Of a stretch of DNA of 64,000 bases, positions 15,706 to 41,395 are shown piece after piece. The notes beneath the pieces were generated by a model that had not been told where the DNA came from, made no database searches, and saw only the letters and a program-made list of their open reading frames with translations. Numbering within the stretch: the first letter of the stretch is position 1; each line of letters starts with the position of its first letter. Origin of the DNA: Acetivibrio sp. (GTDB taxonomy: Bacteria > Bacillota > Clostridia > Lachnospirales > Lachnospiraceae); contig JAVBLX010000035.1 of assembly GCA_031553075.1 (NCBI GenBank), positions 560 to 64,559 on the forward strand, in the 5' to 3' direction. A program made the translations under genes and the position numbers.

Positions 15706-15843
15706 GTGAGAAAACGGAATGTTGCAGTAATCACAGCCATGCTCGTATTAATTTGCCTTATTTTTTTTGTAACAAAATCGGGTGGAAAGCAGGCTGAGTA
15801 TGAAGGAATACTGGTGAAAAGGGAGTGTGAAGTAAATCTATGA
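15706..15843 (+). CDS. Possible 45-aa single-TM protein translationally coupled to spoVAA
   Basis: GTG lies 5 nt after GAGGTG. Translation: VRKRNVAVITAMLVLICLIFFVTKSGGKQAEYEGILVKRECEVNL. Its TGA overlaps the spoVAA ATG (ATGA). Confidence 0.35.
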   Translation: MRKRNVAVITAMLVLICLIFFVTKSGGKQAEYEGILVKRECEVNL

Positions 15844-16875: not shown

Positions 16876-16969
16876 TGCACAATAAGCGTGCAGATGGGAG
16901 CATGGAGAGAGAAGATGCTTCACTTTCCCCTTATTTAAACGCACGTCAAAGCGTGCAGATAGGAGCTAA

Positions 16970-17458
16970 ATGGAAAAAGATAAAAAGAAACCTGGGATAT
17001 CGGATGTATTGAAGGAAACGGACCAGACAAAGCGAAATGAAAAATATAATGAATACGTTAAGGAAGTAACGCCAACTCATAACTGCTTTGTTAATTTATT
17101 GAATGCCTTTTGGATGGGCGGACTTATTTGTACCTTGGGACAGGTCATCCTTAACTGCCTGATTGGTACGGGAATGGATAAAGAGGTTGCAGGCTTTTAT
17201 AATGTCATAATCTTGATTCTGTTAAGCGTGCTTCTTACCGGACTCCAGATATATCCTAAGCTGGCCAAGCTTGGTGGTGCAGGAACGGTAGTGCCAATTA
17301 CGGGATTTGCTAATTCTGTGGCTGCACCGGCAATTGAATATAAGACCGAGGGACAGGTATTTGGAATTGGCTGTAAAATCTTTACCATTGCGGGGCCGGT
17401 TATTTTATATGGTATTTTAAGCAGCTGGATATTAGGAATTATTTATTATGTGTTTTAA
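16970..17458 (+). CDS. spoVAC: Stage V sporulation protein AC
   Basis: 162 aa. Conserved GGAGTVVPITGFANSV segment and 4 TM helices. Confidence 0.9.
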   Translation: MEKDKKKPGISDVLKETDQTKRNEKYNEYVKEVTPTHNCFVNLLNAFWMGGLICTLGQVILNCLIGTGMDKEVAGFYNVIILILLSVLLTGLQIYPKLAKLGGAGTVVPITGFANSVAAPAIEYKTEGQVFGIGCKIFTIAGPVILYGILSSWILGIIYYVF

Positions 17459-17496
17459 GAAGTATATACGCGCGAAAGCGCAGATGGGAGCCTGCC

Positions 17497-18534: not shown

Positions 18535-18536
18535 AT

Positions 18537-18893
18537 ATGGACTATGTAATTGCTTTTTTAGTAGGTGGTGCCATTTGTGGGGTAGTACAGCTGCTAATGG
18601 ACAAAACCAAATTAATGCCTGGTCGAATTATGGTAATTCTGGTATGCCTGGGAAGTCTCTTAGGTGCTGTTGGAATTTATCAGCCCTTTGCAGATTGGGC
18701 CAAGGCGGGAGCAACGGTACCGCTGATTGGATTTGGTAATGCGTTATTTCAAGGTGTAAAGAAAGCAGTGGATGCTGATGGCTTTATTGGCATTTTTAAG
18801 GGAGGCTTTACGGCTTCAGCCGTGGGAATTTCAGCAGCCCTCATATTCAGCTATATTGCTTCTTGGATATTCAAGCCAAAATTGAAAAAGTAG
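18537..18893 (+). CDS. spoVAE: Stage V sporulation protein AE (AEb-type)
   Basis: 118 aa membrane protein with GATVPLIGFGN, paralogous to SpoVAC. Operon position supports the call. Confidence 0.9.
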   Translation: MDYVIAFLVGGAICGVVQLLMDKTKLMPGRIMVILVCLGSLLGAVGIYQPFADWAKAGATVPLIGFGNALFQGVKKAVDADGFIGIFKGGFTASAVGISAALIFSYIASWIFKPKLKK

Positions 18894-29602: not shown

Positions 29603-29755
29603 ATGGGAGAAAAAATCTATACCACGATGAAATCAGTTGGAACAGCAAATTTAGTACTGGGGATTGTGATTATGCTTGTGGGCATCGGTACCGGGGTAGC
29701 AGTTATCGTGAGCGGAGCAAAGCTACTGAATAAGAAAAAGGATTTGCTATTCTAA
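29603..29755 (+). CDS. Small single-TM protein (50 aa), hypothetical
   Basis: Not in the track. ATG lies 8 nt after GGGAGG. Translation: MGEKIYTTMKSVGTANLVLGIVIMLVGIGTGVAVIVSGAKLLNKKKDLLF. Confidence 0.5.
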   Translation: MGEKIYTTMKSVGTANLVLGIVIMLVGIGTGVAVIVSGAKLLNKKKDLLF

Positions 29756-29875: not shown

Positions 29876-30685
29876 TTGGTAATTGCTTTTTGGAGCAATG
29901 TAAAAGGAAAAGGAGGAGTCACCAGTAATTTAGCTTGCATCAGTGTACAGGCGGCTTTAGAAGGGCGGGATTCCATCCTCTTTGAAAATCATTTTAACAT
30001 TCATTCAATGGGTGATATTCTGGAGGGAGCAGCAAAAAATCATTATTTAAAGGAGGAGTACAGTTATCAAAGGCGTGGTCTGGAACCATTAATACGACAG
30101 TTTCAATGCGGATACGCCGTGGGGAATATTAAGGAAAGCTACAGCGTCTCATATTTACAGAAAGGAATTTCCTATCTGCCCCAAAGTCAGTGGATGAATC
30201 AGGAACTATTTGATTATGAATTCTGTCAGGTAATCAGACCGATGCTTAAAGAGCTTAAAAAGGTCGCCGGAACCATTTATATTGATACCAGTCCGGAGGA
30301 TTTACTTAGTACCAGAAGCATTTTAGAAGAGGCCGATGTCATCGTAGTAAATTTAAATCAAGATCCTCATGTGGTGGATCATTATTTCAAAAATTATCAT
30401 TCTTATATGGAAAAATCCATATTTCTGTTAAGTCATTATGAAGAAGAATCTAGGTTTAATCGAAAATTAATCTTTAAAAAATATCCAGTTGGAAAAGAAA
30501 AGATTGCAGTAATACCTTATTTTGCGCCGTTCAAAGAGGCTGTAGGAGAGGGGAGAGTGATTCGTTTCTTTGAAGAAAATAAGAAAGGGAGTAGAAAAAA
30601 AGAGAGTACTTACTTTTTTGAAGAAGTAAAGGAAGCATCGGATATGATTTGGGAGTTTGCAAAGGGGAGGGAAAAGAAGGATTGA
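29876..30685 (+). CDS. ParA/MinD-fold protein with a degenerate P-loop (TadZ/CpaE-like position)
   Basis: TTG start lies 8 nt after AAGGAGGGGG, so the track start 29765 is probably an artefactual extension. Beta-strand plus loop VIAFWSNVKGKGGVTSNLA, compared with the canonical KGGxGK[ST]. Walker-B-like TIYIDTSP, then ADVIVVNLNQD. Confidence 0.65.
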   Translation: MVIAFWSNVKGKGGVTSNLACISVQAALEGRDSILFENHFNIHSMGDILEGAAKNHYLKEEYSYQRRGLEPLIRQFQCGYAVGNIKESYSVSYLQKGISYLPQSQWMNQELFDYEFCQVIRPMLKELKKVAGTIYIDTSPEDLLSTRSILEEADVIVVNLNQDPHVVDHYFKNYHSYMEKSIFLLSHYEEESRFNRKLIFKKYPVGKEKIAVIPYFAPFKEAVGEGRVIRFFEENKKGSRKKESTYFFEEVKEASDMIWEFAKGREKKD

Positions 30686-30687
30686 CA

Positions 30688-32316
30688 ATGGAACACTTGC
30701 GGGAAGGAGTTATGGAAACTTTTAACCAGCTGCTGCGGGAAAATCCGTATGAACTTAATTTAAGTGGAGAGGAATTAAAAAGTCGGCTTGAGAGCAAAAA
30801 AGAATTGAGAAAGGCTTTAAAAAGCTGCATTTTCGGGGATAAAGAAGCAAAGCTCTTGGTAAAGTCCTACATCAGGGATATCCTGGTAAAAAAATATAAA
30901 ATAAATAAGGACAACATTGAGGAATACGTTTGCTTTGATAATCCTTTGGGATTGTCTGCTCAGGATAAATTTGGGATTTTACTGTATATATATCAAAAGG
31001 AATCAAAGGAACTGGCATTAGAACGTTTGATTGAAGCGTATCAGCTGGATCAGCCAAGAAGAACACCAGCGGGGATGCTTTACTATGAAATCACGGCGGC
31101 AGATATCCATGACGTTTATGAAGAAACCCCATGTATCCTGCTTAATTTTATAGATAAGCTAAACATTCTTTCGCAAAAGATTTATGAAAATTATAAGGGG
31201 AATGGGGCGATAGACGAGATACGGGATATGAAAATTGATGGAGTAAGTGCCGGAGTGTCGGGGATTCCGGAGGACTTTCAACAGGAAAAGCTGGAACAGC
31301 ATACGTTACCTTCTGCTTATGACAGTATCTGGCTGTTTTATCATGGAAAATCCATTTCCTTATCATTCTTAAGCTTTTACAGTTACAAAGAGCTTATCCG
31401 TGTCTGCCGGAATATCTATCGGTATAATAATCCGGGGCAGCTTTCGGAAACCAAAGGATACATTGTCAATGAGATGAAAGATGGCTCCCGTGTAGCAGTG
31501 GCAAGACCACCTTTTTGTGAATCATGGGTTTTATTTATCCGAAAGTTTGACACTGTGCTTCAGGAGAGTATTTACAAGTTGCTTACGGACCGGAATGCAG
31601 ACCTGGCGATTGAGTGGATTAAGTGGTTGATAAAGGGCTGTATGATAACGGGGATAACTGGCCAGCAGGGAAGTGGTAAGACGACTCTTTTAATGGCACT
31701 GATTGGATTTATTTCTCCTGCGTATAATTTACGGATTCAGGAACTGTCCTTTGAGCTTCATTTGAGAACAATATATCCGGAGCGAAATATTGTTTCATTT
31801 AAGGAAACGGGGAATATTTCAGGGAAAGCAAGCCTTGATTTCATGAAGAAATCGGATGGAACGGTGACGATACTGGGAGAGGTGGCTACGGATGAAGTAA
31901 GTGTCTGGCTGATTAAGGTGGCTCAAGTGGCCTCTTTATTTACGCTGTTTACCCATCATGCTAAAACAACCGAAAACCTGGTGATTTCCATGCGGAATTC
32001 TTTATTGATGGAAGGGGGCTTTCAAAATGAACGCATTGCCGAAGAACAGGTGGTAGAAGCGATTAACTTTGACATCCATATGAAAAAGGACAATGACGGG
32101 CACCGTTACATTGAACGGATTACAGAGATTATACCAGAGAAGGAAAGGGGATTTCGGACCAGAAACATTGTGGTTTGGGAGGATGGCGAATATCATATGG
32201 CAAATCTTGTTTCAGAGGAACGGCTGGAGCAGCTTAAAAGTATGCTGAGCAAAGAGGAACTGCTGCAATTTGATGGGTTTGTAAAGGCACAGTGGGCTGA
32301 GGCAAAGAGAGGGTAA
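30688..32316 (+). CDS. CpaF/TadA/VirB11-class secretion (type IV filament) ATPase, divergent
   Basis: Walker A ITGQQGSGKTTLLMAL, Walker B/catalytic Glu TILGEVATDE, and His-box-like TLFTHHAKT. ATG 30688 lies 2 nt after the previous stop. Confidence 0.8.
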   Translation: MEHLREGVMETFNQLLRENPYELNLSGEELKSRLESKKELRKALKSCIFGDKEAKLLVKSYIRDILVKKYKINKDNIEEYVCFDNPLGLSAQDKFGILLYIYQKESKELALERLIEAYQLDQPRRTPAGMLYYEITAADIHDVYEETPCILLNFIDKLNILSQKIYENYKGNGAIDEIRDMKIDGVSAGVSGIPEDFQQEKLEQHTLPSAYDSIWLFYHGKSISLSFLSFYSYKELIRVCRNIYRYNNPGQLSETKGYIVNEMKDGSRVAVARPPFCESWVLFIRKFDTVLQESIYKLLTDRNADLAIEWIKWLIKGCMITGITGQQGSGKTTLLMALIGFISPAYNLRIQELSFELHLRTIYPERNIVSFKETGNISGKASLDFMKKSDGTVTILGEVATDEVSVWLIKVAQVASLFTLFTHHAKTTENLVISMRNSLLMEGGFQNERIAEEQVVEAINFDIHMKKDNDGHRYIERITEIIPEKERGFRTRNIVVWEDGEYHMANLVSEERLEQLKSMLSKEELLQFDGFVKAQWAEAKRG

Positions 32317-32325
32317 GGGGGAAAA

Positions 32326-33966
32326 ATGTATTTATTTCTATCTGAAAACAAAATAACCCGCAGATATGTTAGACGCTTAAGTAAACTATATGGAATCGTG
32401 AGTCCATCCAGCCAGGCGGTAAATGAAAGGCGTGTCCTTGAGATCCTTCTTCTCCAGCTTATATTATCTGGCATTTTATTGCTGTTTCCACTGAGGTTTG
32501 GAGCTTTTAATATGTACTATTATTTATATTTATTGCCCATGTGTTATCTGGTAAATCGCCAATTGGTTATGGCAAGGCTTGAGAAGGCAGAGTATGGATT
32601 GTTAAAGCAGATGGAGCATTATCTGGGAGAAATCCGTCATTTTTATCATTTGAACGGGACAGTAGAGGAAGCAGTCTATGAATCACAAGAGCAGGCACCA
32701 GCCCAAATTCTTGCTCACATAAATACTATTTATGACATTTTACTTCTTGGAGATGATGGGGAGGTAGAAAAGTATAAAGAACAGGCACCCAATAAGTTTC
32801 TTGTAACTTTTCTGGCACTTTGCTGGTTAACTGTTAAGTATGGCGATACCTACGAAGATGGCAGCTCACTATTTCTGGCAAATCTCAACCATCTGAAAAC
32901 GGAAATTCATCTGGAGCTGTTAAAACGGGAGAAAGTGGCACATACCTTTGCGGGACTTCTATTTATTACCATAATCCCCATGTTTTCCTTCAAACCAATT
33001 GAAAAATGGGGAATGACGAATCTTCCAGAGCTGACGGACTATTATCAAGGGAGCTATGGGCTGGGGGTTACGGCACTGATTTTTGCGGCGACAGTCATTG
33101 CGTATTTGGTAATTAGTCAATTAAAAGAGGAGCGGGAATATCTGAGAAGTACTCATGAGTGGTTGGACTGGCTGGGAGAAGTTGGTTGGATAAAAAAGTT
33201 TTTGTGGGGGTGGGGAAATCAGAATACAAGGCTGGTTTATCAGTTACATAAGGTAATAAAGCGGACTGGGGAAGGCATATCGGTGAATCAGTACATTCTA
33301 AGGAAGCTGATGTTGGGGTTGGGGAGCTTTGGCTTTCTGGTGGCTTTGCTGGAGCGGATGACCTGGCTATCCAGTCATGGAAGAAGCTTCTGGTTTCACT
33401 TTATGTGTGTGCTTCTGGCAGGTATGGGTGGCATCATAGTTTCTGGAATCCCCAGGTTTGTAATGGAAATCCGGGGGTTTTTCCTCAAGCAGGATAAGGA
33501 GGATGAGGTGATGCAGTTTCATTCCATTCTGCTTATGCTTATTCATATCGAAAGAATGAATATAGAAACCATACTGGAATGGTTGGAGATGTTTTCTAAT
33601 ATCTTTCGGACCTCTCTTCAGGCCTGCGTGGACCAGTATCCCTATGATGGGGAGGCGGCTCTTGAAAAATTGAAAGGGGAAGAACCTTTTCCACCCTTTT
33701 TAAGAATTGTGGAAAATTTGGAGGTCAGTGATCGGACGGGGATACGGGTTGCCTTCGAGGAAATTGCATCACAACAAAAGTATTACGAAGAAAAAAGAAA
33801 ACAGGACAATGAGATTCTAATTACCAACAAGGGAGTAATTGGAAAGGTAATTGCCTATGTTCCCTTGATTCTGACGCTTGGATTTTACCTGATTGTGCCT
33901 TTTGTTCTGGAAAGTATTACGCAGCTGGCTGGATTTATGGAACAAATGAACGTGGTCGGCAAATGA
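32326..33966 (+). CDS. Polytopic membrane protein (about 8 TM), probable TadB/TadC (GspF-like) platform, single large polypeptide
   Basis: 546 aa. AAGGGGG RBS. The C-terminal part (cytoplasmic helical bundle ...LEWLEMFSNIFRTSLQACVDQ...FLRIVENLEVSDRTGIRVAFEEIA... followed by a terminal TM helix) resembles a T2SS-F domain. It sits immediately after the ATPase gene. Confidence 0.6.
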   Translation: MYLFLSENKITRRYVRRLSKLYGIVSPSSQAVNERRVLEILLLQLILSGILLLFPLRFGAFNMYYYLYLLPMCYLVNRQLVMARLEKAEYGLLKQMEHYLGEIRHFYHLNGTVEEAVYESQEQAPAQILAHINTIYDILLLGDDGEVEKYKEQAPNKFLVTFLALCWLTVKYGDTYEDGSSLFLANLNHLKTEIHLELLKREKVAHTFAGLLFITIIPMFSFKPIEKWGMTNLPELTDYYQGSYGLGVTALIFAATVIAYLVISQLKEEREYLRSTHEWLDWLGEVGWIKKFLWGWGNQNTRLVYQLHKVIKRTGEGISVNQYILRKLMLGLGSFGFLVALLERMTWLSSHGRSFWFHFMCVLLAGMGGIIVSGIPRFVMEIRGFFLKQDKEDEVMQFHSILLMLIHIERMNIETILEWLEMFSNIFRTSLQACVDQYPYDGEAALEKLKGEEPFPPFLRIVENLEVSDRTGIRVAFEEIASQQKYYEEKRKQDNEILITNKGVIGKVIAYVPLILTLGFYLIVPFVLESITQLAGFMEQMNVVGK

Positions 33967-33974
33967 ATTGATGA

Positions 33975-34080
33975 TAACAGTGCTGCGAAGCTGGTAAATG
34001 GTTTGAGGAGTAACAGTGCTGTGAGGGTGGCAAATGATTTAATGATGAATGAATAACAGTGCCGTAGGTACGGTAGAGGG
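33975..34080 (+). repeat. Three direct repeats headed by TAACAGTGC in the spacer before the 150-aa gene
   Basis: TAACAGTGCTGCGAAGCTGGTAAATGGTTT (33975-), TAACAGTGCTGTGAGGGTGGCAAATGATTT (34011-) and TAACAGTGCCGTAGGTACGGTAGAGG (34054-). Periods are 36 and 43 nt. Confidence 0.8.
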
Positions 34081-34088
34081 GAGTTTAA

Positions 34089-34541
34089 ATGGATAATAGT
34101 TTAAAAGGATTAATATTGGCCGCAGGCACAATCATAACCTGCATAGTTGTGGGATTGGGCTTTTTCATTGCCAGAGAGGCAAGGGATACGGCTGCCAGTG
34201 GAGCGGGACAGATATCAAAGCTTAATGCGGAATTTAATGAAAGTGATAAAGTGATGTACGATGGTCTTTCCGTATCAGGGAGTGAAGTAATCAATGTAAT
34301 TAATAAGTTTAAAAATCAGGATTTATCAATAAAGGTAACCACGGGGAAAGGAACGTTTTACTACAATCATACATTGAATGGTGATGGAAATAGTTTGGGC
34401 AGTGGTAGTGGCACATCGGTGAAGGAAGCTCAAAAAACCACCAGTAGCAATTATATAAATCCCAACGCACAGTTTATGGGAGCGGTTGTCCGAGATGCTA
34501 ATAATGCCATTATTGGTCTGGCATTTGCTCAGGAGGCCTAA
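34089..34541 (+). CDS. Pilin-like protein (150 aa): short leader ending in Gly, hydrophobic helix, soluble beta-rich domain
   Basis: MDNSLKG-LILAAGTIITCIVVGLGFFIA-RE.... GAGGGGA RBS 7 nt upstream. First gene after the platform gene, where major pilins sit in Tad loci. Confidence 0.55.
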   Translation: MDNSLKGLILAAGTIITCIVVGLGFFIAREARDTAASGAGQISKLNAEFNESDKVMYDGLSVSGSEVINVINKFKNQDLSIKVTTGKGTFYYNHTLNGDGNSLGSGSGTSVKEAQKTTSSNYINPNAQFMGAVVRDANNAIIGLAFAQEA

Positions 34542-34650
34542 AGCGATTCTCTTCATACGGAAAGATGCAAAAGACGTATTCTTTACAGAGTGTTTGCCGC
34601 TGGTAGCGGTATTAAGTGAAAGTGTGATGCAGAAAGAGGGAGATGAGAGA

Positions 34651-34815
34651 ATGGAAAATGGATTGGATTTAATGTTTGAAACATTGGGGGTATTTTTATT
34701 TTGTCTGGCACTTACCCTCACCATAGAGCTATTTCATAATCTGGAGCAGCTGGAAAACCAGACCATGGATAATTTATATGATTCCCATGTGTTTTACAGT
34801 GTGGCAGTAGAGTGA
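34651..34815 (+). CDS. Small (54 aa) hydrophobic-helix protein, possible Flp-like or minor subunit
   Basis: ATG lies 8 nt after GAGGGAG. Translation: MENG-LDLMFETLGVFLFCLALTLTIELFHNLEQLENQTMDNLYDSHVFYSVAVE. The upstream part of track ORF 34486.. overlaps the previous gene and lacks an RBS. Confidence 0.5.
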   Translation: MENGLDLMFETLGVFLFCLALTLTIELFHNLEQLENQTMDNLYDSHVFYSVAVE

Positions 34816-34824
34816 GGTGATGGA

Positions 34825-35322
34825 GTGGATTCCTTTGGAAGAATGATTGAAATTATCATTACGGTAATTCTTTTGTTTTTGGTTCCTATTCAGTATATGG
34901 CTATCCGACAGGACAGCATTTGTCAAAGCTATGTTACCACAGAAACGGCTTACTTCGTGGATTCGGTGCGAAACACAGGATTTGTGACGAAAGGGATGTA
35001 CCAGACCTTTCTTAGAAAATTGAGCGGAACCAGTCAAGTCTATGAAGTAGAGTTGAATCACTACCGACGTGTAATTGACTTGACCGACGAGAATTACTCG
35101 GAATATTATCAGGGCATTTATACACAGGATATTATCGAAGGTATGGAGGAATTGGGAAGGGAGGGGTATCTCTTCGGACGTGGTGATTTCTTTTCTGTTA
35201 AGGTGGTAAATGTGAATAAGACACTGGGAACCAGAATGCAGGAGTTGTTTACAGGACGTGCTTTTCCCGGCGGGGAAATTTGTGTTGTATATGGAGGTGC
35301 CATACGGGATGAGATTCGTTAG
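34825..35322 (+). CDS. Pseudopilin/TadE-like N-terminally anchored protein (165 aa)
   Basis: GTG lies 5 nt after GAGGTG (an alternative ATG is at 34843). VDSFG-RMIEIIITVILLFLVPIQYMAI-RQD..., then a soluble domain. Confidence 0.55.
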   Translation: MDSFGRMIEIIITVILLFLVPIQYMAIRQDSICQSYVTTETAYFVDSVRNTGFVTKGMYQTFLRKLSGTSQVYEVELNHYRRVIDLTDENYSEYYQGIYTQDIIEGMEELGREGYLFGRGDFFSVKVVNVNKTLGTRMQELFTGRAFPGGEICVVYGGAIRDEIR

Positions 35323-35390
35323 TACAGTGAGTGTATACGGGATTAGATTCATTCGTACATGGAGGAGCCATTTGGGATGAGATTCCATAA
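35291..35390 (+). repeat. Tandem triplication of the 3' end of the 165-aa gene
   Basis: Copy 1 is ATGGAGGTGCCATACGGGATGAGATTCGTTA (35291-35321, includes the stop). Copy 2 is GTGAGTGTATACGGGATTAGATTCATTCGTA (35327-35357). Copy 3 is CATGGAGGAGCCATTTGGGATGAGATTCCATAA (35359-35390). Confidence 0.8.
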
Positions 35391-35462
35391 CACATGAGGT
35401 GGTAAAAGGAGAAGTGATGGGGATTAGATGGATATGAGTGCAAATATGGAAGGGGATATGAA

Positions 35463-36317
35463 ATGAAGTTTGCTAATTATGGAATTTTATTTGGTGCGCT
35501 ATTTCTTGGTCTGATGATCATGGATCATATCCGTTCAGAAGCTGTTTCTAAAATGACCGCTCTTTCCGTACAATATAATAATGCGGTAGACAATAGTGTA
35601 GAGGCGGCCATGGCGGAAGCGGTTGAACTGGATACTGGGCATTTTGTATTTGTGAACAAGGAAGAAGTGATGGAGCGCTTTTTCACTGCATTATATGTGA
35701 ATTTTGATAGTATGGAAAATCCAGGGAAAAAGAAGCTTCTGGAGGCTTGTGTACCAGTTGGTGTCTTTGTGGACCGTGATAGCATGACCATCACTTATAA
35801 GAATCAGGAAGGGCGAAAGTGGGATACCATACCATTTATCCAAGAGTATGGGGATTATCGAATATTTTTTACGCTTTCAGATTATATTATAATTGAAGAA
35901 AAATCAGGACAATTTCGTCTGGAGGGCGACTATCACGATGTGAAAAGAGAACTTTTGCGGAAAGAAGCAGTTCCAGAAGAAGCAAGACTTCTTCCTTTTG
36001 AAAAAGCAATTCTTATGGAAGTACTGGGGGATTTGGTCTTTGAGGAGGAAAGGCGCAGGGTGATTATTGACACTCTGGAGGTGAACTTAACCAAAGCCGT
36101 AAAAGAGCATAATCACTATGCTAAGAAAATGGGGGTGGAGTATGAGTTTCAGTTTCCTGTGATTGAGCGGGAGGAATGGTATCAGACAATGGATGATATG
36201 AGTTTTTTTGTTCTATTCCAAGGATATCCTTATGGAGGATTTGGGACAAAATGTTTCAGTAAGGTTGCATTTGGTGGCGCACAGCTAAAAAAGACCAGAT
36301 TTGCAGATAAAAGCTAA
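35463..36317 (+). CDS. N-terminally anchored protein (284 aa), unknown function, in the Tad-like locus
   Basis: MKFANYG-ILFGALFLGLMIM-DH..., then a soluble domain. Same strand and operon. Confidence 0.6.
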   Translation: MKFANYGILFGALFLGLMIMDHIRSEAVSKMTALSVQYNNAVDNSVEAAMAEAVELDTGHFVFVNKEEVMERFFTALYVNFDSMENPGKKKLLEACVPVGVFVDRDSMTITYKNQEGRKWDTIPFIQEYGDYRIFFTLSDYIIIEEKSGQFRLEGDYHDVKRELLRKEAVPEEARLLPFEKAILMEVLGDLVFEEERRRVIIDTLEVNLTKAVKEHNHYAKKMGVEYEFQFPVIEREEWYQTMDDMSFFVLFQGYPYGGFGTKCFSKVAFGGAQLKKTRFADKS

Positions 36318-36364
36318 CAAATAAAATAGTTATAATGCGCGGAGGGGCGCAGAAGGGAGTATAG

Positions 36365-37582
36365 ATGAATTATCGTTGGATACAAATATCATTACTAATC
36401 AGCATTTTATTTTTTGTCATATTAGCACCGAGAGCTTATGCAGCTGATAAAAAGCAAAGTAAAATGAAAGAGGTTGAGTTTCTTACCACATTGGAGCAGA
36501 CAATTGGAGAAGAGAACATGAAGATAGTCTTAGGTGAAGAGGTAAAGAAAAAGGGAATCATTACTAAAGAGCGAGCAGCTTTTTTTCTTGCCCGCGCAGA
36601 GGAGGTCTTTTATGAAACGTCGTTCGAGGAGGAATTTTATAAAATATGTATAAAAAAGAAACGGATTTATGATTATTTCAAGATACAGGAAAGATACAAA
36701 GCGGGTGTTTTAAAAGTTTATATGAAGGGAATTATGGTAGGGGACTCTAATGGGATGTTTTCAGGCAGCAGGACCTTTTCTCCCAAAGCGTATTTGACAA
36801 TAGGAGAAAGTGAAGAAGTTTTAAAACGCTTTGCCAATCCGAAAAGCAGGAAGAAGCTGAGTCCAGATGGACAGCTTCTCCGTACTACCAATCTCCCTAA
36901 AAATGATAAGCTATTTCCTTACATTCTGGCTAGTTTTCCCAATAGCTACTATGAGGCAGGGTTTGCCTATGAAGGTTATGAACCGGCTTTGAAGGAAGGG
37001 CGGGACTACACCAACCCGATAAATGTGAAGGATATAAAAATTACTAAGATTCCCGGTAAAGTAGTACCTATGAGCTGGGCTATGGAACAATATCAAGACC
37101 AGTGGGTGAAAAAAGTAAAAAATAATATGGAAGCACGTTTTAATGTGGATTACCGAACGATTGACAAGGATCATAAGTGGTATAATAAGCTTCACGACTC
37201 TTATTATTTTTATAAGAATGACCCGGACAATTACATTGACAAAGTAAATGTTAAAGAGATGAAAGATTACATAAAATGGGTTAAAAAGAATCATCTTGTG
37301 ATGAAAGGAATTGTTCGACTTGATAAGTCCAGTTTTTATACCTGCCAGGGTGGATATTATTTTCGGGTGTATGTGAAGTTTAAAGTAGCATCTATTGACC
37401 AGATGCCTAAAAAGACGGAAGATTTATTTTACTCCTGTTCTCATTTAGTGGTATTGCGGCCTTTTAAAAAGGGTGTCTGGATAGAAAAATATTTTGATAT
37501 TGCAGTAGGTAGTCCGAATGGGTATTCTCTAGGGGAAGATTATGCCTTGTGTGATGATGCCTTAGTTGATTCAGCATATTAA
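36365..37582 (+). CDS. Secreted protein (405 aa), unknown function
   Basis: Signal peptide MNYRWIQISLLISILFFVILAPRAYA|ADKK. AGAAGGGAG RBS. Lys/Tyr-rich mature part. Confidence 0.7.
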   Translation: MNYRWIQISLLISILFFVILAPRAYAADKKQSKMKEVEFLTTLEQTIGEENMKIVLGEEVKKKGIITKERAAFFLARAEEVFYETSFEEEFYKICIKKKRIYDYFKIQERYKAGVLKVYMKGIMVGDSNGMFSGSRTFSPKAYLTIGESEEVLKRFANPKSRKKLSPDGQLLRTTNLPKNDKLFPYILASFPNSYYEAGFAYEGYEPALKEGRDYTNPINVKDIKITKIPGKVVPMSWAMEQYQDQWVKKVKNNMEARFNVDYRTIDKDHKWYNKLHDSYYFYKNDPDNYIDKVNVKEMKDYIKWVKKNHLVMKGIVRLDKSSFYTCQGGYYFRVYVKFKVASIDQMPKKTEDLFYSCSHLVVLRPFKKGVWIEKYFDIAVGSPNGYSLGEDYALCDDALVDSAY

Positions 37583-37592
37583 GAGGTGTGCT

Positions 37593-40500
37593 ATGCGGTA
37601 TTTCAAGGTTTTTGTGATTTTTGTGATATTTGGAATTGGCATAGGTATAGGAACTAATAAGGGCATGACGGCAACAAAACCCAAATTAGAGGATGACGGA
37701 AATATTGTTTTTGCAACTACAGATACTATAGCAACTACAGGTATCACGTGGAGTGAGGTTGGGTTTACAATAAGAAGAGATGAATCAGATGGAAGCCCTA
37801 TGAAAGACAAAAAGTATGCAATTCTTTTGTTAAAGGACTCTTATCGCACCAAAAAGGATAATGGAAATGGTAAATACACGGTAACCTTTCGAATCCCCAA
37901 GGAGGATGTGAATGCTGCAATGACAAAGGCTGGCATTTCGGCCATTGAAGATGAGGATATCATTTATCTCAACGGAATTTTCAAAGTCACTCGAAACGGT
38001 GTGGCAGACAAGAATTATTATTATACATTGAACGGGATAAGAGGTGCGGCGGACTGGAGAAATAAGAATGATTTTAAAGAGCTGTTTGATCTTAAGATGC
38101 CCTTTGAAAGCACAAAATATCCAGTAACGATAGAGTACTATACCAGCCAGAACCAGCTGATTGCCACAAAGTCGCTGGGAGAGTATAAGGAAGGTGAAAA
38201 GGTAAGCGTCACGTTGGATACCAGTAAGCGCTTTGATGGTAATTCGTATGAAATATATCGGAGCTATCTGGTTCACCTTAAGAATGAAGGGAAAAAAGTA
38301 GAGGATTATCGCACTGCTAATGGAAATACCCTGACAGAAATTACCAATCGTCAGTTTAAGGCGGGAATGGGCGGAACAAAGATAATCGCATTGATGAAAA
38401 AGGAAAGCGACCCTAAGACAATAGAAGAGGATGTTGGAAGTATAGGAGATGAGCTTCCTGATAAGGTAGAAAGTTTTGGTGTGATGAATGGGGATGACAG
38501 GGGCAACGAGGCTTATGAGGCTACAGATGGAATTCCAGTCATGGAAAATTTATATGCCAATGGCTTTTGCGAGGACTACATTAGGGAATATGAATTTAAG
38601 AAAAAAGAAGGAGTAAAAACATATCCAGTGGTGGTCAGACGGACGTATATCCTTACTTGGACGGAAACTTCCAGTGTGTGGAATCAGAAGACCAAGAAAA
38701 TGGAGACCACATATAGGAACCAATCCTATTCGACAACGGTTATGCAAACCATTTCAATAAAGCGAAATTATGCTTACTGGCAGATTGAGCGGCTTGGATT
38801 ATACCTGCCAAAGCAGATGATGATTCAAAATGGAGCCTTGCCGGGAGGACTTATTTATCTGGAGGGAAGGGAACCGAGGAAGCCTGTCGTTTTATACCAG
38901 CAATGGGGAGCAGAAGAAAACCATATTAAGGACCCTGTCTATCCTAAAACTATAACACTTTCCTCGGTAACCATATCTGGTGGCAGCAGCATGCCATCGG
39001 TTCCATCGGAGGACTTTTCCAGCTATGCAGAACACCAGGTTTCTGAAATTATGGTTCGCAATGACAGCCTTTCATGGGAAGGGAAGGAAATCATGAATGG
39101 GGAATATACCACCAAACAAGGAAAGAAGCCGAAGGAAATTCCTGGCAGCAGTCAGTTAATTGGTGAAAATGTATTTTATGAAAAAGGGATTGCAATTGAG
39201 AAAACAAGAATGAATGGAACTTATAGTTCATCTGGAAAAGTAGTATATGAAGCAATGCTTCGTTTGGGAAAGGGAACGGAAAAGCAAGTCAGCTATGTGG
39301 TGGAAGATATTAATCCAGTCACGGTGCATACTCCAGTAGTATGTAATGGCATGGTAGAAGATAAGTACCGGGATTGTCAAATGCTTTTTCCAGATACCAA
39401 TCGGTGCTCCCTGGTTTTGGGACTGGAATTTAAGGTGCGAATGGAAACAGAAGGGCAACATCGATTGATTAAGGGTTATGGTTATAACGATTACCAAAAA
39501 TATATGAGTTTGCGTCAGGTTAAATTCCCCTTTGATGTTGTCAAGAATGGAGTACGAAAACCAGCAGATCAGTGGATGGATGCGGAAGTGGAGGAGACCT
39601 ATTTTCTGCCTTGTGATGTCATGGAAGGTCAGTACGAAATCGAATTTCGAACCGTGGCAGTAAATAATGCGGGCAGCTTGGAGAACGGACAGCCATATGC
39701 AAATGAAGATCTGGACTATTATGTGGCGGTAAACCAGGTTCCGGTGGAAGTAAGTGGGCGTTTATATCAGCTTAAGGTCTTTGATATTTCAGACTATCCA
39801 CTTTGGAAAAGAGTCTTCCGAAAAGAAAATTCGTTGGAAAAAAGCGGATTCTCCTTTTCGGTTCTGGATTTTCCAATAAGAAAGGGAAAGCATCCTCTTT
39901 ATCCAGCAGAAGGTTCGTTAAAACCCGGATATATGCTGCGAATGTCTCTTATTACCAGTGGAAATATGGAGGGAGAAAAGTGCTGTCTGCGAGTTATACC
40001 CAGGTTTTATCATATAAACAAGGTCTATGACAACCCGGTGGAGGTAGAGGTATACTATGGAGAAACCATAGAAAATCGATACTATCCTTTTGTTGAAATG
40101 GGAAGTTTGGTAGATGAGAAGAATCGAAAGCTACTTAAGCTTTCCGATATAAACCTGGCCATTGCTCAAGAGGAGCTTGACTTTACAGCAAAGAAAAAGT
40201 CATTGACGGTGGAGGAATTAAAAATTCTTACATTTCAAGCATACCAGTATAATCAAATTCTGATTCCGTCTATGGCACAGATATTGCAGGAAACGCAAGG
40301 AATGCAGAAATGGTATTTTGAATATAGCCTCCCTTCTAAGATTTATGTAGTGGAAAAGGGGGTTGATGTAAAAGACTATTGTCAGAAAAATACACTGACC
40401 TTCCGAGAGGATTTCTGGAAAAAAGAGGGGTATTTAGTTGTGAACTTTGACATTGAAACCATAAAAGATGGGAAAAGGCATTTAAGCTACATAAATGAAA

Positions 40501-40640
40501 CGATGTCACAAATCGGGTATTGCAATATGTGGAAAAAGGAAGGATTTCTTTATGAATATGTATTCCGAGATGGAGATATGGGATTATTTGAGTTGAAAAA
40601 ATCCGCAGCCTTGGATTATCAGAGCCGAGGTACTCATTGA
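37593..40640 (+). CDS. Large (1015 aa) N-terminally anchored extracellular protein, unknown function
   Basis: ATG follows AGAGGTG. MRYFKVFVIFVIFGIGIGIG TM/signal anchor. Beta-rich throughout, e.g. a MucBP-like stretch YPVTIEYYTSQNQLIATKSLGEYKEGEKVSVTL. No LPxTG motif. The track start 37566 overlaps the previous gene. Confidence 0.75.
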   Translation: MRYFKVFVIFVIFGIGIGIGTNKGMTATKPKLEDDGNIVFATTDTIATTGITWSEVGFTIRRDESDGSPMKDKKYAILLLKDSYRTKKDNGNGKYTVTFRIPKEDVNAAMTKAGISAIEDEDIIYLNGIFKVTRNGVADKNYYYTLNGIRGAADWRNKNDFKELFDLKMPFESTKYPVTIEYYTSQNQLIATKSLGEYKEGEKVSVTLDTSKRFDGNSYEIYRSYLVHLKNEGKKVEDYRTANGNTLTEITNRQFKAGMGGTKIIALMKKESDPKTIEEDVGSIGDELPDKVESFGVMNGDDRGNEAYEATDGIPVMENLYANGFCEDYIREYEFKKKEGVKTYPVVVRRTYILTWTETSSVWNQKTKKMETTYRNQSYSTTVMQTISIKRNYAYWQIERLGLYLPKQMMIQNGALPGGLIYLEGREPRKPVVLYQQWGAEENHIKDPVYPKTITLSSVTISGGSSMPSVPSEDFSSYAEHQVSEIMVRNDSLSWEGKEIMNGEYTTKQGKKPKEIPGSSQLIGENVFYEKGIAIEKTRMNGTYSSSGKVVYEAMLRLGKGTEKQVSYVVEDINPVTVHTPVVCNGMVEDKYRDCQMLFPDTNRCSLVLGLEFKVRMETEGQHRLIKGYGYNDYQKYMSLRQVKFPFDVVKNGVRKPADQWMDAEVEETYFLPCDVMEGQYEIEFRTVAVNNAGSLENGQPYANEDLDYYVAVNQVPVEVSGRLYQLKVFDISDYPLWKRVFRKENSLEKSGFSFSVLDFPIRKGKHPLYPAEGSLKPGYMLRMSLITSGNMEGEKCCLRVIPRFYHINKVYDNPVEVEVYYGETIENRYYPFVEMGSLVDEKNRKLLKLSDINLAIAQEELDFTAKKKSLTVEELKILTFQAYQYNQILIPSMAQILQETQGMQKWYFEYSLPSKIYVVEKGVDVKDYCQKNTLTFREDFWKKEGYLVVNFDIETIKDGKRHLSYINETMSQIGYCNMWKKEGFLYEYVFRDGDMGLFELKKSAALDYQSRGTH

Positions 40641-40798: not shown

Positions 40799-41395
40799 AT
40801 GACATTGAGGAAGAAATCTCATATTTCGGTTGCAAATTATTTGTTAAACAGTCACGGCATGGAATATTTGCAGGGACATAAGAAGTCGTTTTATCTGGGA
40901 AGTATCCTTCCCGATTGTGTACCATCGTTTATTACCCGCAGACATTGTATAGAAGACACCATTGACATACTGAAAAAGGAAATAGACAAGGTAACCGAGC
41001 ACTATGATGCAACCCAGGGGCTTACACCTTATTTTTGCAGACATCTGGGTGTTATTACTCATTACGTAGCGGATTATTTCACCTTTCCTCACAATGAAAC
41101 CTACCCTGGTAATATAAAAGATCATTGTGTTTATGAAGAAGATTTAAAACATGCTATCAGAGCATATGTAAAATCAGAAGATGCTATGCGAGTACGGGAA
41201 AAAAATGGCTTATTCGCCAATTCAGACGAAATTATTTCCTTTATCCGAAGGGCTCACGATGAATATTTGAAGCTGATTAACCAGGTAAAGCTGGATTGCA
41301 TGTATATCGTGGAGCTTTGCCACAAGGTAGTGGATGCCATTCTTCAGTTGTTTGAAATGGAACTTGGCAGACATGGCATTTTAGTTATGGAATAA
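40799..41395 (+). CDS. Zinc-dependent phospholipase C-like family protein (putative)
   Basis: 198 aa. His/Asp pattern (KSHISVANYLL..., GSILPD, HYVADYFTFPHN) recalls the small PLC-like family. Assigned by eye only. Confidence 0.5.
   Translation: MTLRKKSHISVANYLLNSHGMEYLQGHKKSFYLGSILPDCVPSFITRRHCIEDTIDILKKEIDKVTEHYDATQGLTPYFCRHLGVITHYVADYFTFPHNETYPGNIKDHCVYEEDLKHAIRAYVKSEDAMRVREKNGLFANSDEIISFIRRAHDEYLKLINQVKLDCMYIVELCHKVVDAILQLFEMELGRHGILVME

What the first reader, a model, noticed from the sequence alone, without database searches (positions are those of the whole stretch)
29876..40640. Nine-gene divergent Tad / type IV filament-like assembly locus whose filament and accessory subunits are unrecognisable
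Seen in the sequence: nine same-strand genes with gaps of 2-140 nt lie between pyrE and an unrelated gene.
- (1) A 269-aa ParA/MinD-fold protein.
- (2) A 542-aa CpaF/TadA/VirB11-class ATPase (Walker A GQQGSGKTTLL, Walker B TILGEV).
- (3) A 546-aa, roughly 8-TM protein whose C-terminal third resembles a GspF/TadB/TadC platform domain.
- (4-7) Proteins of 150, 54, 165 and 284 aa, each with a short polar N-terminus, one hydrophobic helix of about 20 residues, and a soluble part.
- (8) A 405-aa signal-peptide protein.
- (9) A 1015-aa N-terminally anchored protein.
Established knowledge: the order ParA-like / ATPase / platform / small N-terminally hydrophobic proteins is the tadZ-tadA-tadBC-flp-tadE-tadF layout of Tad pili.
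Inference: this is a type IV filament-class machine, but several expected features are missing.
- No putative subunit carries the Flp G/xxxxEY or the GFxxxE prepilin motif.
- No A24 prepilin peptidase is present in the window.
- The ParA P-loop is broken.
- I cannot place genes 4-9 in any family by eye.
The fibre (or secreted cargo) and its role therefore look undescribed.
Basis: partly seen in the sequence, partly recalled or inferred. Interest (0 to 1): 0.85.

Follow-up and report, generated by a model that had tools for sequence, protein, structure and literature searches.

The report
Unannotated Tad-like pilus locus in Firmicutes
The nine genes are real and form a very divergent relative of the Tad adhesion-pilus machinery. 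Its motor is recognisable, its fibre subunits match no described family, and the same cluster is conserved but unstudied in many gut Lachnospiraceae and on large plasmids of Bacillus-like and Clostridium species.

Summary
Nine same-strand genes with good ribosome-binding sites lie between pyrE and a phospholipase-C-like gene, and a public gene caller made five of the calls identically.

**Motor**
- g2 is a CpaF/TadA-class ATPase (PDB CpaF E 4e-14; next best hit 2e-4).
- g1 is a short TadZ-like ParA-fold protein. Its "broken" P-loop is the family's normal atypical motif.
- g3 is a TadB-TadC fusion. The N-half matches a PF00482 TadB (E 4e-6) and the C-half matches TadC-position proteins (E 5e-5). 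The top Foldseek hit is PilC.

**Fibre and accessory proteins**
- g4 models as a pilin-style lollipop: a 54-residue N-terminal helix plus a β head.
- g4 has a near-invariant N-terminus with K-G (K-A in other Firmicutes) just before the hydrophobic helix.
- g4 to g7 match no Pfam, NCBIfam, Flp, TadE or ComG family.
- g8 carries one weak SLH-like repeat, and g9 carries DUF5704.

**Distribution**
- No prepilin peptidase is encoded in the window or in about 50 related loci.
- The g1-g7 order recurs in 42 Lachnospiraceae genomes.
- On 100-540 kb Firmicute plasmids it recurs with a SAF/CpaB-like gene, an SLH protein, a DUF5704 protein and often a GGDEF gene.

I found no functional study. Verdict: a new variant of the type IV filament/Tad kind.

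The parts
29876..30685 (+). g1: short TadZ/CpaE-like ParA/MinD-fold protein (269 aa) with an atypical Walker A that lacks the GK[ST] lysine. Probably a localisation or assembly factor.
   Evidence: The family profile A4 matches the TadZ-position proteins of two canonical Firmicute Tad loci over nearly their full length (hhalign E 1.6e-5 and 5.6e-5). There is a weak CooC (MinD-fold) hit in PDB (E 0.24). The gene is conserved in 39 of 42 loci. The P-loop motif is shared across the family.
30688..32316 (+). g2: CpaF/TadA-class secretion ATPase (542 aa) with a family-specific N-terminal region of about 210 aa.
   Evidence: PDB CpaF scores E 3.7e-11 with the single sequence and 4e-14 with the family profile; the next best hits are VirB11 at 2e-4 and FlaI at 3e-4. 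Pfam T2SSE scores E 1e-4, below the curated cutoff. TIGR03819, a TadA-family model, scores 2e-7. The Walker A, Walker B and His-box residues are invariant in 40 sequences.
32326..33966 (+). g3: polytopic inner-membrane platform (546 aa), a single-chain TadB-like plus TadC-like fusion.
   Evidence: There is no Pfam or PDB sequence hit. In hhalign the N-half matches a PF00482 TadB family at E 4e-6 (reversed control 0.047). The C-half matches TadC-position proteins at E 5e-5 and 6e-4 (controls 0.2-0.5; cross pairs not significant). The AlphaFold2 model has pLDDT 91 and pTM 0.85. The top Foldseek hit is PilC in 3jc8 (prob 0.85; all others at or below 0.18).
34089..34541 (+). g4: candidate major fibre subunit (150 aa). 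A short polar leader ends in K-G, followed by a hydrophobic helix and a small β-rich head.
   Evidence: The AlphaFold2 model has pLDDT 84.6, with a helix over residues 2-55 followed by a β-sheet head. Residues 1-38 are almost invariant while the head varies. After the ATPase it is the best-conserved protein of the locus (47-72% identity in most loci). There are 618 homologues, all unnamed and without a Pfam domain. The residue at -1 is G in Lachnospiraceae and in Butyrivibrio, and A in the Bacillales and Clostridium plasmid copies.
34651..34815 (+). g5: 54-aa single-helix protein, a truncated copy of a second pilin-like gene.
   Evidence: A protein of about 50 aa occupies this position in nearly all loci. 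The 118-138 aa forms in Anaeromicropila, Anaerocolumna and the plasmids are g4 paralogues (hhalign E 6e-5 over the head domain). Its N-terminus resembles the g4 leader (MENxLK...).
34825..35322 (+). g6: 165-aa N-terminally anchored protein, a candidate minor-pilin-like or assembly subunit.
   Evidence: It is conserved at this position (30 of 42 loci by tblastn; 49 family members by iterative blastp) and has plasmid orthologues at 25-28% identity. It has no Pfam hit and no similarity to DUF4320 or TadE-like proteins.
35463..36317 (+). g7: 284-aa N-terminally anchored protein, a candidate minor subunit or anchor. No conserved Gly precedes the helix.
   Evidence: The family has 40 members across the loci and plasmids, with 20-28% identity to the plasmid orthologues. 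It has no Pfam hit. The N-terminal alignment shows MK[LIF]xD[FL] with no conserved G.
36365..37582 (+). g8: secreted 405-aa protein with a signal peptide and one degenerate SLH-like repeat. Probably a cell-wall-associated accessory protein.
   Evidence: Pfam SLH scores E 0.006 at residues 111-136. That repeat aligns with the SLH repeat of the plasmid-borne protein at the same position (hhalign E 1e-3). The plasmid copies carry three clear SLH domains (E 6e-36). Homologues occur only in 6-7 related loci.
37593..40640 (+). g9: 1015-aa N-terminally anchored surface protein with a DUF5704 domain. Candidate adhesin, cargo or wall-spanning component.
   Evidence: Pfam DUF5704 scores E 3e-41 at residues 309-491. 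It shares 30-31% identity over about 750 aa with the 'DUF5704 domain-containing protein' that ends the plasmid clusters. There is no PDB sequence relative.

Best explanation
The locus is a chromosomal copy of a conserved, so far uncharacterised Firmicute branch of the Tad-like type IV filament machines.

Shown:
- g2 is a catalytically intact CpaF/TadA-class ATPase.
- g3 is a single-chain platform whose two halves are remote homologues of TadB and TadC.
- g1 is a TadZ-like ParA-fold protein.

Inferred mechanism:
- The g2 hexamer docks on g3 and uses ATP to lift g4 out of the membrane. g4 has a pilin-like N-terminal helix and a small β head.
- g4 subunits stack into a helical fibre through their near-invariant N-terminal helices.
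- g5, g6 and g7 act as low-abundance priming or tip subunits, or as membrane anchors.
- g1 positions the machine.
- The secreted SLH-like g8 and the giant DUF5704 protein g9 sit in or on the thick cell wall, as a conduit, anchor or adhesin.

No peptidase gene is linked to the cluster in any genome examined. If the K-G/K-A site is cleaved, a prepilin peptidase encoded elsewhere must do it.

The most likely output is a surface adhesion or aggregation fibre. On plasmids the cluster often carries a neighbouring diguanylate cyclase gene, which points to c-di-GMP control there.
For: ATPase class.

Platform: the N-half matches TadB and the C-half matches TadC, with reversed and cross-pair controls; confident model, PilC as top hit.

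TadZ-like g1.

Pilin-like g4: a 54-residue helix plus a β head; N-terminus invariant, head variable, which is the usual pilin pattern; K-[GA] before the helix across Bacilli and Clostridia; long g5 is a g4 paralogue, as expected for major/minor pilin sets.

Gene order: ATPase, platform, major subunit, then smaller N-terminally hydrophobic proteins, as in tad and comG operons (established knowledge).

Conservation: the g1-g7 order is kept in 42 Lachnospiraceae genomes. The full set, from the SAF gene to the DUF5704 gene, is found on plasmids of Alkalihalophilus, Thermobacillus, Lysinibacillus and Paenibacillus, and variant sets on Clostridium, Butyrivibrio and Cytobacillus plasmids. The platform family has 1,244 clusters at 50% identity.

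CpaB-like partner: a SAF-domain protein heads the plasmid clusters, in the position CpaB/RcpC holds in Tad loci (compare).

c-di-GMP link: a GGDEF gene directly follows 5 of the 8 plasmid clusters inspected.

Precedent for an unlinked peptidase: MSH loci lack one and borrow it from another system (PMC6668835).
Against: No fibre has been seen, and nothing here shows that g4 leaves the membrane.
- Foldseek found no pilin match for g4 (best E 0.48). A lollipop model alone does not separate a pilin from an ordinary bitopic membrane protein.
- g4-g7 have no Flp, TadE or ComG signature.
- There is no Glu near +5. Gly at -1 is replaced by Ala in several of the plasmid copies and is not conserved in g5 or g7.
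- No prepilin peptidase is encoded in the window or within about 10 kb of any related locus.
- The remote homologies for g1 and g3 are modest (hhalign probabilities 66-87%). Pfam T2SSF misses all 50 divergent g3 members tested.
- The window copy lacks the SAF gene and the neighbouring ~230-aa gene, and its g5 is truncated, so this particular copy could be a reduced version.
Confidence: 0.6

Rival explanations
1. The machine is a short pseudopilus-type exporter that works like a type II secretion piston. g4-g7 form a transient periplasm- or wall-spanning stub that pushes specific cargo through the wall instead of making a long fibre. The cargo would be the large DUF5704 protein g9, g8, or unlinked proteins.
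For: The motor parts are the same as in the best explanation. A large surface protein always ends the full clusters: DUF5704 in most, and a leucine-rich-repeat protein of about 3,700 aa in Cytobacillus. Four different N-terminal-helix proteins in a row resemble a pseudopilin set. The Roseburia-type loci keep g1-g7 but not g8 or g9, so the core could serve other cargo.
Against: g8 and g9 have their own Sec-type signal or anchor and need no special exporter. Monoderm bacteria have no outer membrane to cross, and no Tad-class system is known to act as a T2SS (established knowledge). The strong conservation of g4 relative to g5-g7 fits a major structural subunit.
Confidence: 0.15
2. The cluster is a conjugation or mating accessory of large Firmicute plasmids. 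The fibre, or the adhesin it displays, would bring donor and recipient cells together, or take part in DNA transfer. The Lachnospiraceae chromosomal copies would then be domesticated or relic versions.
For: Full-length homologues sit on 35 plasmids of 61-543 kb. They often lie in the backbone next to replication, ParM or replication-relaxation genes, and in Thermobacillus near a VirD4-type coupling protein. Cell-wall hydrolases lie inside or beside the Clostridium and Butyrivibrio clusters. pPPM1a encodes a TraG-like coupling protein (PMC4117785). The best NCBIfam model for g2 is a 'conjugal transfer-associated' TadA family.
Against: All 35 plasmids are typed non-mobilizable, and pBsph did not transfer or mobilise in mating tests (PMC4363355). 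The window and 9 related genomes carry the locus at a fixed chromosomal site next to pyrE, with no transfer genes nearby, which indicates vertical inheritance and a host function. VirB4, VirD4 and relaxase genes are not part of the conserved set.
Confidence: 0.12
3. The window copy is a decaying remnant that no longer assembles anything, because it has lost the SAF and ~230-aa genes and has a truncated g5.
For: The SAF gene and the ~230-aa gene upstream of g1 are absent here, although they are present on plasmids and in Anaerocolumna. g5 is 54 aa here against 118-138 aa elsewhere. Some Catonella MAG copies have fragmented g2 and g3.
Against: All nine ORFs are intact and have strong ribosome-binding sites. 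The catalytic residues of g2 are intact. The short g5 is the norm in about 35 Lachnospiraceae loci, and the reduced g1-g7 set is itself conserved across genera at 40-60% identity. That pattern reflects purifying selection, not decay.
Confidence: 0.08

Closest known systems
Tad / Flp (type IVc) pilus systems, in particular the monoderm Firmicute Tad loci such as those on Thermoanaerobacterium pMU3262 and Alkaliphilus pB6464
   Same: The ATPase is CpaF/TadA-class. A short TadZ-like ParA-fold protein with the same lysine-less P-loop sits directly upstream. The platform sequence is related to both TadB and TadC. A SAF/CpaB-like protein heads the complete clusters. The system is encoded at a single locus and is often plasmid-borne.
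   Different: The platform is one fused 546-690 aa protein rather than two genes. There is no Flp pilin (50-75 aa, G/xxxxE[YF]); the candidate subunit is 150 aa with a globular head. There is no TadE/TadF/DUF4320 pseudopilin signature. No TadV/CpaA peptidase is linked in any of about 50 loci. The ATPase has an extra N-terminal region of about 210 aa and scores below the Pfam and TIGRFAM cutoffs. SLH and DUF5704 proteins are added.
Archaeal type IV pili (the Epd-like and other archaeal T4P from which Tad is thought to derive; PMC6668835)
   Same: The platform is a single long protein with two domains, as in most archaeal T4P. The leader has a basic residue at -2 and Gly or Ala at -1 with no Glu at +5, which resembles archaeal class III signal peptides (own knowledge). 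The pilin has a β-rich head. There is a TadZ-like partner.
   Different: The ATPase is much closer to bacterial CpaF than to FlaI or archaeal GspE (4e-14 against 3e-4 and 3e-3). The domain order in g3 follows the bacterial tadB-tadC gene order, whereas the archaeal proteins are reported to align TadC-like first. This favours a secondary fusion, but the TadB and TadC labels here rest on gene position and annotation only. The family was found only in Firmicutes in these searches.
ComG competence pseudopilus of Firmicutes
   Same: The operon order is ATPase, platform, major subunit, then several small N-terminally hydrophobic proteins. A Lys-Gly precedes the helix. The host is monoderm, and the peptidase (ComC) is encoded elsewhere.
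   Different: The ComGA model scores only E 0.07. There is no KGFTLxE motif and no ComGB or ComGC-GG family hit. The ParA-like, SAF, SLH and DUF5704 partners are foreign to com operons.

Membership tests
Type IV filament superfamily (generic) | A PilB/GspE/TadA-superfamily hexameric secretion ATPase with Walker A, Walker B, Asp and His boxes | tested here: met
   CpaF scores E 4e-14 with the family profile, and the alignment covers NTD2 plus the CTD. The catalytic residues are invariant. The Pfam T2SSE hit is below the gathering score (21.6 against 24.9 bits).
Type IV filament superfamily (generic) | A polytopic platform protein of the GspF/PilC/TadBC (T2SSF, PF00482) family encoded next to the ATPase | tested here: met
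   The homology is remote only. hhalign against a PF00482 TadB family gives E 7e-6 and probability 84%. The N-half scores E 4e-6 against a reversed control of 0.047. The C-half scores 5e-5 and 6e-4 against TadC-position proteins. PilC is the top Foldseek hit. Direct Pfam and PDB sequence searches were negative.
Type IV filament superfamily (generic) | Subunits with a class III signal peptide (short basic leader, Gly at -1, hydrophobic helix) that polymerise into a fibre | tested here: inconclusive
   g4 has M-x5-K-G followed by a 20-residue hydrophobic stretch, and its model has a 54-residue helix plus a β head. However, Gly is replaced by Ala in several plasmid orthologues, there is no Glu at +5, and Foldseek found no pilin match. 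Cleavage and polymerisation cannot be tested with these tools.
Type IV filament superfamily (generic) | An A24 prepilin peptidase | tested here: not met
   None is present in the 64-kb window, none lies within about 10 kb of the roughly 50 related loci, and none is annotated in the 8 plasmid clusters. The rest of the host genome could not be searched. MSH systems set a precedent for borrowing a peptidase.
Tad / Flp pilus (T4cP) | Two separate platform genes, tadB and tadC, each with one T2SSF domain | tested here: not met
   A single 546-aa gene (up to 690 aa on plasmids) carries both halves.
Tad / Flp pilus (T4cP) | An Flp-family pilin (PF04964; about 50-75 aa; G/xxxxE[YF]) | tested here: not met
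   No protein of the locus gives a Pfam or NCBIfam hit to this family. The g4 and g5 profiles against the Flp-like proteins of two Firmicute Tad loci give nothing beyond a 23-residue leader/helix match at E 0.0017.
Tad / Flp pilus (T4cP) | TadE/TadF-type pseudopilins (PF07811, or DUF4320 in Firmicutes) | tested here: not met
   There is no Pfam hit for g6 or g7 or their plasmid orthologues. hhalign against DUF4320 and the neighbouring proteins gives E of 0.007 or worse.
Tad / Flp pilus (T4cP) | A TadZ/CpaE ParA-like protein with an atypical Walker A | tested here: met
   hhalign gives E 1.6e-5 and 5.6e-5 over about 220 columns against the TadZ-position proteins, which share the lysine-less P-loop. 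g1 lacks the N-terminal receiver-like domain of long TadZ proteins (own knowledge).
Tad / Flp pilus (T4cP) | A CpaB/RcpC SAF-domain protein | tested here: not met
   It is absent from the window. A SAF protein is present at the head of the clusters on plasmids (SAF E 5e-7) and weakly in Anaerocolumna.
Conjugative type IV secretion system (VirB11-type ATPase with VirB4, VirD4 and a relaxase) | VirB4 and VirD4 ATPases and a relaxase in the conserved gene set | tested here: not met
   None is present in the window locus or in the conserved core of the related loci. VirB11 scores far below CpaF. All plasmids that carry the cluster are typed non-mobilizable.
SpoIIIA sporulation channel | The spoIIIAA-AH gene set (SpoIIIAA ATPase, SpoIIIAB to AH families) | tested here: not met
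   No SpoIIIA family appears in the Pfam results or among the 25 NCBIfam models listed for any of the nine proteins. The gene order and sizes differ. The cluster also occurs on plasmids.
ComG competence pseudopilus | ComGA, ComGB and ComGC-GG families, with a KGFTLxE leader | tested here: not met
   ComGA scores E 0.07. There are no ComG pilin hits, and the leader lacks the F+1 and E+5 residues.

The most novel reading that the evidence does not exclude
Gram-positive conjugation is thought to work without pili. On the most novel reading, this family is the first pilus-type mating or aggregation apparatus of large Firmicute plasmids.
Probability: 0.12. Interest if true: 0.9.

Novelty: new variant of a known kind. 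Interest (0 to 1): 0.6.

Why it matters
Lachnospiraceae are dominant gut commensals, and how they attach to mucus, fibre or each other is poorly understood. This work identifies a conserved seven-gene core, which no current family model names and which generic annotation labels almost entirely 'hypothetical'. The core is a candidate surface-fibre machine in dozens of Lachnospiraceae genera.

The same cluster, extended by SAF, SLH, DUF5704 and often GGDEF genes, sits on megaplasmids of Paenibacillus, Lysinibacillus, Alkalihalophilus and Clostridium, including C. botulinum and C. argentinense. That offers genetically tractable hosts in which to test it.

For the evolution of type IV filaments it adds three things:
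- a lineage in which the TadB/TadC split is undone or never happened;
- a lineage in which the Flp pilin is replaced by a globular subunit;
- a lineage in which no peptidase travels with the system.

It also gives DUF5704 a first functional context.

Tried and rejected
1. Foldseek of the g4 model against PDB gave no pilin or any other significant match (best E 0.48, NTF2-like noise).
2. The g3 family profile against PDB sequences gave nothing at E up to 10. A Pfam scan of 50 divergent g3 homologues gave no T2SSF hit. A whole-library profile search returned only close family members among its top 150, so it gave no bridge to known platforms.
3. An internal-repeat test of g3, N-half against C-half, was weak (E 0.016).
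4. The ~230-aa protein upstream of g1 in many loci looks ParA-like by eye. hhalign against g1 or TadZ-like proteins is not significant (E 0.011-0.2), so I do not call it ParA-like.
5. g8 against the plasmid SLH proteins shares only one SLH-like repeat (E 1e-3), so orthology is not shown.
6. g9 against PDB sequences gave nothing.
7. I considered SpoIIIA, ComG and conjugative T4SS identities and rejected them (see the membership rows).
8. Literature searches for DUF5704, pBsph, pPPM1a, pBpOF4-01, and Tad or type IV filament terms with Firmicutes or Lachnospiraceae found no study of this cluster. The library is incomplete, so a description elsewhere cannot be excluded.
9. I did not build an ATPase phylogeny, because the tools do not return reference sequences. 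Clade assignment rests on E-value ranking only.

Full report
**1. Observation**

The nine + strand ORFs are present exactly as described. The gaps between them are 2-140 nt. Each start codon has a GGAGG-type ribosome-binding site 5-10 nt upstream, including the TTG start of g1 and the GTG start of g6. The products of g2, g3, g4, g8 and g9 exist as identical sequences in a public protein collection, called from an NCBI contig of 65,797 bp. A Logan contig carries pyrE, a 50-aa ORF and g1 to g4 with the same gene calls.

Upstream lie the pyrimidine genes ending in pyrE. Downstream lies a Zn-dependent phospholipase-C-like gene and then an ORF on the opposite strand. The host is a spore-forming Lachnospiraceae-like organism. 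The window also carries an anti-sigma-factor-kinase-like gene, a sigma-70-family sigma factor gene and the spoVA genes, an arrangement that resembles spoIIAB-sigF-spoVA. All close homologues of the ATPase come from Lachnospiraceae.

**2. The motor**

g2 is a secretion ATPase of the CpaF/TadA class.
- The single sequence hits Caulobacter CpaF structures at E 3.7e-11 over residues 220-510.
- A 40-member family profile raises this to 4e-14. VirB11 (2e-4), FlaI (3e-4), PilT (4e-4) and archaeal GspE (3e-3) are ten orders of magnitude weaker.
- Pfam T2SSE is hit only below its curated cutoff. The best NCBIfam model is a TadA-family model at E 2e-7. This shows how divergent the family is.
- The Walker A, Walker B and His-box residues are invariant.

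g1 has no Pfam hit. Its family profile aligns over about 220 columns with the proteins in the TadZ position of two ordinary Firmicute Tad loci, on Thermoanaerobacterium pMU3262 and Alkaliphilus pB6464 (E 1.6e-5 and 5.6e-5). Those proteins have the same lysine-less P-loop ([FL]WSxxxGxxGxT[ST]). The 'broken' P-loop is therefore a family trait, not decay.

g3 gave nothing with Pfam, NCBIfam or PDB sequence searches, and none of its homologues carries a Pfam annotation. Three further lines of evidence identify it:
- A 60-sequence alignment gave a confident all-helical AlphaFold2 model (pLDDT 91, pTM 0.85). Its top Foldseek hit is PilC in the type IVa pilus machine model 3jc8 (probability 0.85, all other hits at or below 0.18).
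- Profile-profile comparison with a PF00482-annotated TadB family from the Alkaliphilus-type Tad locus gives E 7e-6 over 181 columns.
- Split in two, the N-half matches TadB (E 4e-6; reversed-sequence control 0.047). The C-half matches the TadC-position proteins of both reference loci (E 5e-5 and 6e-4; reversed controls 0.2-0.5). The cross pairs are not significant.

g3 is therefore a single-chain TadB-like plus TadC-like platform. Denise et al. describe TadB and TadC as the products of a fission of a two-domain archaeal-type platform (PMC6668835). Here the two halves are joined, in the bacterial tadB-tadC gene order.

**3. The candidate fibre proteins**

g4 (150 aa) is the best-conserved protein of the locus after the ATPase (47-72% identity in most loci).
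- Its first 38 residues are almost invariant (M-[ED]-N-S-L-K-G-L-I-L-A-A-G-T-I-I-T-C...), while the rest varies. This is the usual conservation pattern of type IV pilins.
- AlphaFold2 (pLDDT 84.6) gives a continuous helix over residues 2-55, followed by a small β-sheet head.
- In plasmid-borne orthologues from Bacilli and Clostridium the residue before the hydrophobic stretch is Ala instead of Gly, still preceded by Lys. A basic residue at -2 and Gly or Ala at -1, with no Glu at +5, resembles archaeal class III signal peptides (own knowledge).
- Foldseek finds no pilin, or any other significant match.
- The 618 homologues are all unnamed and have no Pfam domain.

g5 is about 50 aa in nearly every Lachnospiraceae locus. 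It is 118-138 aa in Anaeromicropila, Anaerocolumna and on plasmids, where it is a g4 paralogue (hhalign E 6e-5 over the head). The window's 54-aa g5 is the helix-only form.

g6 and g7 are separate conserved families (49 and 40 members), each with an N-terminal hydrophobic helix. Neither they nor g4 or g5 resemble the Flp-like, DUF4320 or TadE-like proteins of the reference Tad loci. Gly before the helix is frequent in g6 but absent in g7.

**4. Accessory proteins**

g8 has a cleavable signal peptide and one degenerate SLH-like repeat (E 0.006). That repeat aligns with the SLH repeat of the protein at the same position on plasmids, where three clear SLH domains are present (E 6e-36).

g9 carries DUF5704 (E 3e-41). 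It is 30-31% identical over about 750 residues to the 'DUF5704 domain-containing protein' that closes the plasmid clusters.

**5. Distribution**

A scan of one genome per species with g2 found 42 loci, all Lachnospiraceae. They include Anaeromicropila, Velocimicrobium, Anaerocolumna, Catonella, Bovifimicola and Roseburia-like MAGs.
- g1-g4 are in the same order in about 40 of them. By position, g5 to g7 follow in nearly all.
- g8 and g9 are restricted to a subclade. In that subclade the locus sits next to pyrE in 10 genomes, which argues for vertical inheritance.
- Elsewhere g7 is followed by unrelated housekeeping genes.
- The platform family comprises 1,244 clusters at 50% identity.

Unexpectedly, full-length homologues (36-48% for g2) also occur on large plasmids. 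The hosts are Thermobacillus, Alkalihalophilus pseudofirmus OF4, Paenibacillus, Cohnella, Cytobacillus, Sporosarcina, Lysinibacillus (pBsph), Clostridium botulinum, C. argentinense, C. beijerinckii and Butyrivibrio.

The annotated plasmid clusters share this order:
- a SAF-domain protein;
- a ~230-aa protein;
- g1, the ATPase and g3;
- g4, a long g5, g6 and g7;
- an SLH protein and a DUF5704 protein.

In 5 of the 8 clusters examined a GGDEF gene comes next. Apart from the ATPase, SAF, SLH and DUF5704 labels, these proteins are nearly all annotated 'hypothetical protein'.

**6. What is missing**

No A24 prepilin peptidase is encoded in the window. Apart from g3, the ORFs there with three or more TM segments that are real genes are SpoVA proteins, and no GxGDxK motif occurs. 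None is encoded within about 10 kb of any related locus, and none is annotated in the plasmid clusters. There is no Flp, TadE, TadF or ComG family hit, and no secretin, as expected for a monoderm.

The window copy also lacks the SAF gene and the ~230-aa gene.

**7. Interpretation**

The three motor parts place the locus in the type IV filament superfamily, nearest to Tad. The fibre side is inferred from four observations:
- the gene order, with ATPase, platform, a highly conserved 150-aa subunit and then further N-terminal-helix proteins;
- the pilin-like model and conservation pattern of g4;
- the paralogy between g4 and g5;
- the wall-binding and giant surface proteins at the end of the cluster.

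I consider a g4-based surface fibre for adhesion or aggregation the most likely product (confidence about 0.6). On plasmids it is probably under c-di-GMP control. If the leader is processed, the peptidase is encoded elsewhere, as in MSH systems.

Rivals are:
- a secretion-type pseudopilus (0.15);
- a conjugation or mating accessory of the plasmids (0.12), suggested by the backbone position and by neighbouring coupling-protein, relaxase-like and hydrolase genes, but weakened by the fixed chromosomal site in Lachnospiraceae, the non-mobilizable typing and the negative mating tests with pBsph (PMC4363355);
- a decayed remnant (0.08), contradicted by intact ORFs and by conservation across genera.

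**8. Novelty and limits**

I found no paper that treats this cluster. DUF5704 occurs in none of the searchable papers. The plasmid papers mention at most 'a pilus assembly ATPase'. The system fails several defining features of Tad: split TadB/TadC, an Flp pilin, TadE/F pseudopilins and a linked peptidase. It shares the Tad motor, so it is best described as a new variant of a known kind.

The remote homologies are modest (probabilities 66-87%), and no experiment supports fibre formation. The ATPase clade rests on score ranking, not a tree. The host genome outside the window could not be searched.

Noticed in passing
window 29603-29755 (+): A 50-aa single-TM ORF with a strong ribosome-binding site lies between pyrE and g1. 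A public pipeline calls it as a gene. It is conserved (50-64% identity) at the same place in the four closest pyrE-linked relatives (L001, L002, L006, L037) but is absent from the plasmid clusters. It is unclear whether it belongs to the pilus-like operon or to the pyr side.
   Followed up: partly
L044, L046, L048, L051, L053 (plasmid loci), directly after the DUF5704 or last large gene: A GGDEF diguanylate cyclase gene follows the cluster in 5 of the 8 plasmids inspected. An HD-domain phosphohydrolase gene is also nearby in Thermobacillus and C. botulinum. In the two Clostridium plasmids a type I signal peptidase gene (lepB) lies two genes further on. This suggests c-di-GMP control and perhaps a dedicated signal peptidase. 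Nothing comparable flanks the window locus.
   Followed up: partly
L048 18220-18981 and L053 14968-15726 (Clostridium plasmids): In the Clostridium botulinum and C. beijerinckii plasmid clusters a 'cell wall hydrolase' gene occupies the position of g5. Butyrivibrio pCY186 has NlpC/P60 and cell-wall hydrolase genes just upstream of the SAF gene. Peptidoglycan remodelling may be part of assembly through the thick wall.
   Followed up: no
L006 14819-19504 (Anaerocolumna aminovalerica): A 1,561-aa ORF is inserted between g5 and g6 in this genome only. The same locus also has a weak SAF/ChapFlgA (CpaB-like) protein upstream at 7459-8421. It is the only Lachnospiraceae locus examined here with a SAF-like hit.
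   Followed up: no
L032-L035 about 14650-15150 (Catonella); L036, L040: Catonella loci carry an extra g4 paralogue after g7. Two Catonella MAG loci have g2 and g3 broken into several ORFs, which could reflect pseudogenes or assembly errors.
   Followed up: no
L052 17315-27614+ (Cytobacillus solani plasmid): Here the SLH plus DUF5704 pair is replaced by a single giant leucine-rich-repeat protein (over 3,400 aa, cut by the stretch). The terminal surface protein of the cluster therefore appears to be exchangeable.
   Followed up: no
window 14433-18890 (+): This stretch holds an anti-sigma-factor-kinase-like gene, a sigma-70-family sigma factor gene and spoVAA, AB, AC, AD and AEB-like genes, an arrangement that resembles spoIIAB-sigF-spoVA. 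The host is therefore an endospore former. These are also the only real polytopic membrane proteins in the window besides g3.
   Followed up: yes
window 40799-41395 (+): The 198-aa gene after g9 is a Zn-dependent phospholipase C family protein. It is conserved downstream of the locus in Velocimicrobium (76% identity) and in MAG L037 (56%).
   Followed up: partly
many Lachnospiraceae loci, about 600-700 bp ORF immediately upstream of g1 (e.g. L010 8526-9227, L004 8583-9188, L001 8148-8942): A conserved protein of about 200-260 aa precedes g1 in at least 15 Lachnospiraceae loci; a gene of similar size sits at this position in the plasmid clusters, but its homology to this family was not tested. 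It is absent from the window. It has no Pfam hit, and its eye-level resemblance to a degenerate ParA/MinD fold is not supported by hhalign (E 0.011).
   Followed up: partly
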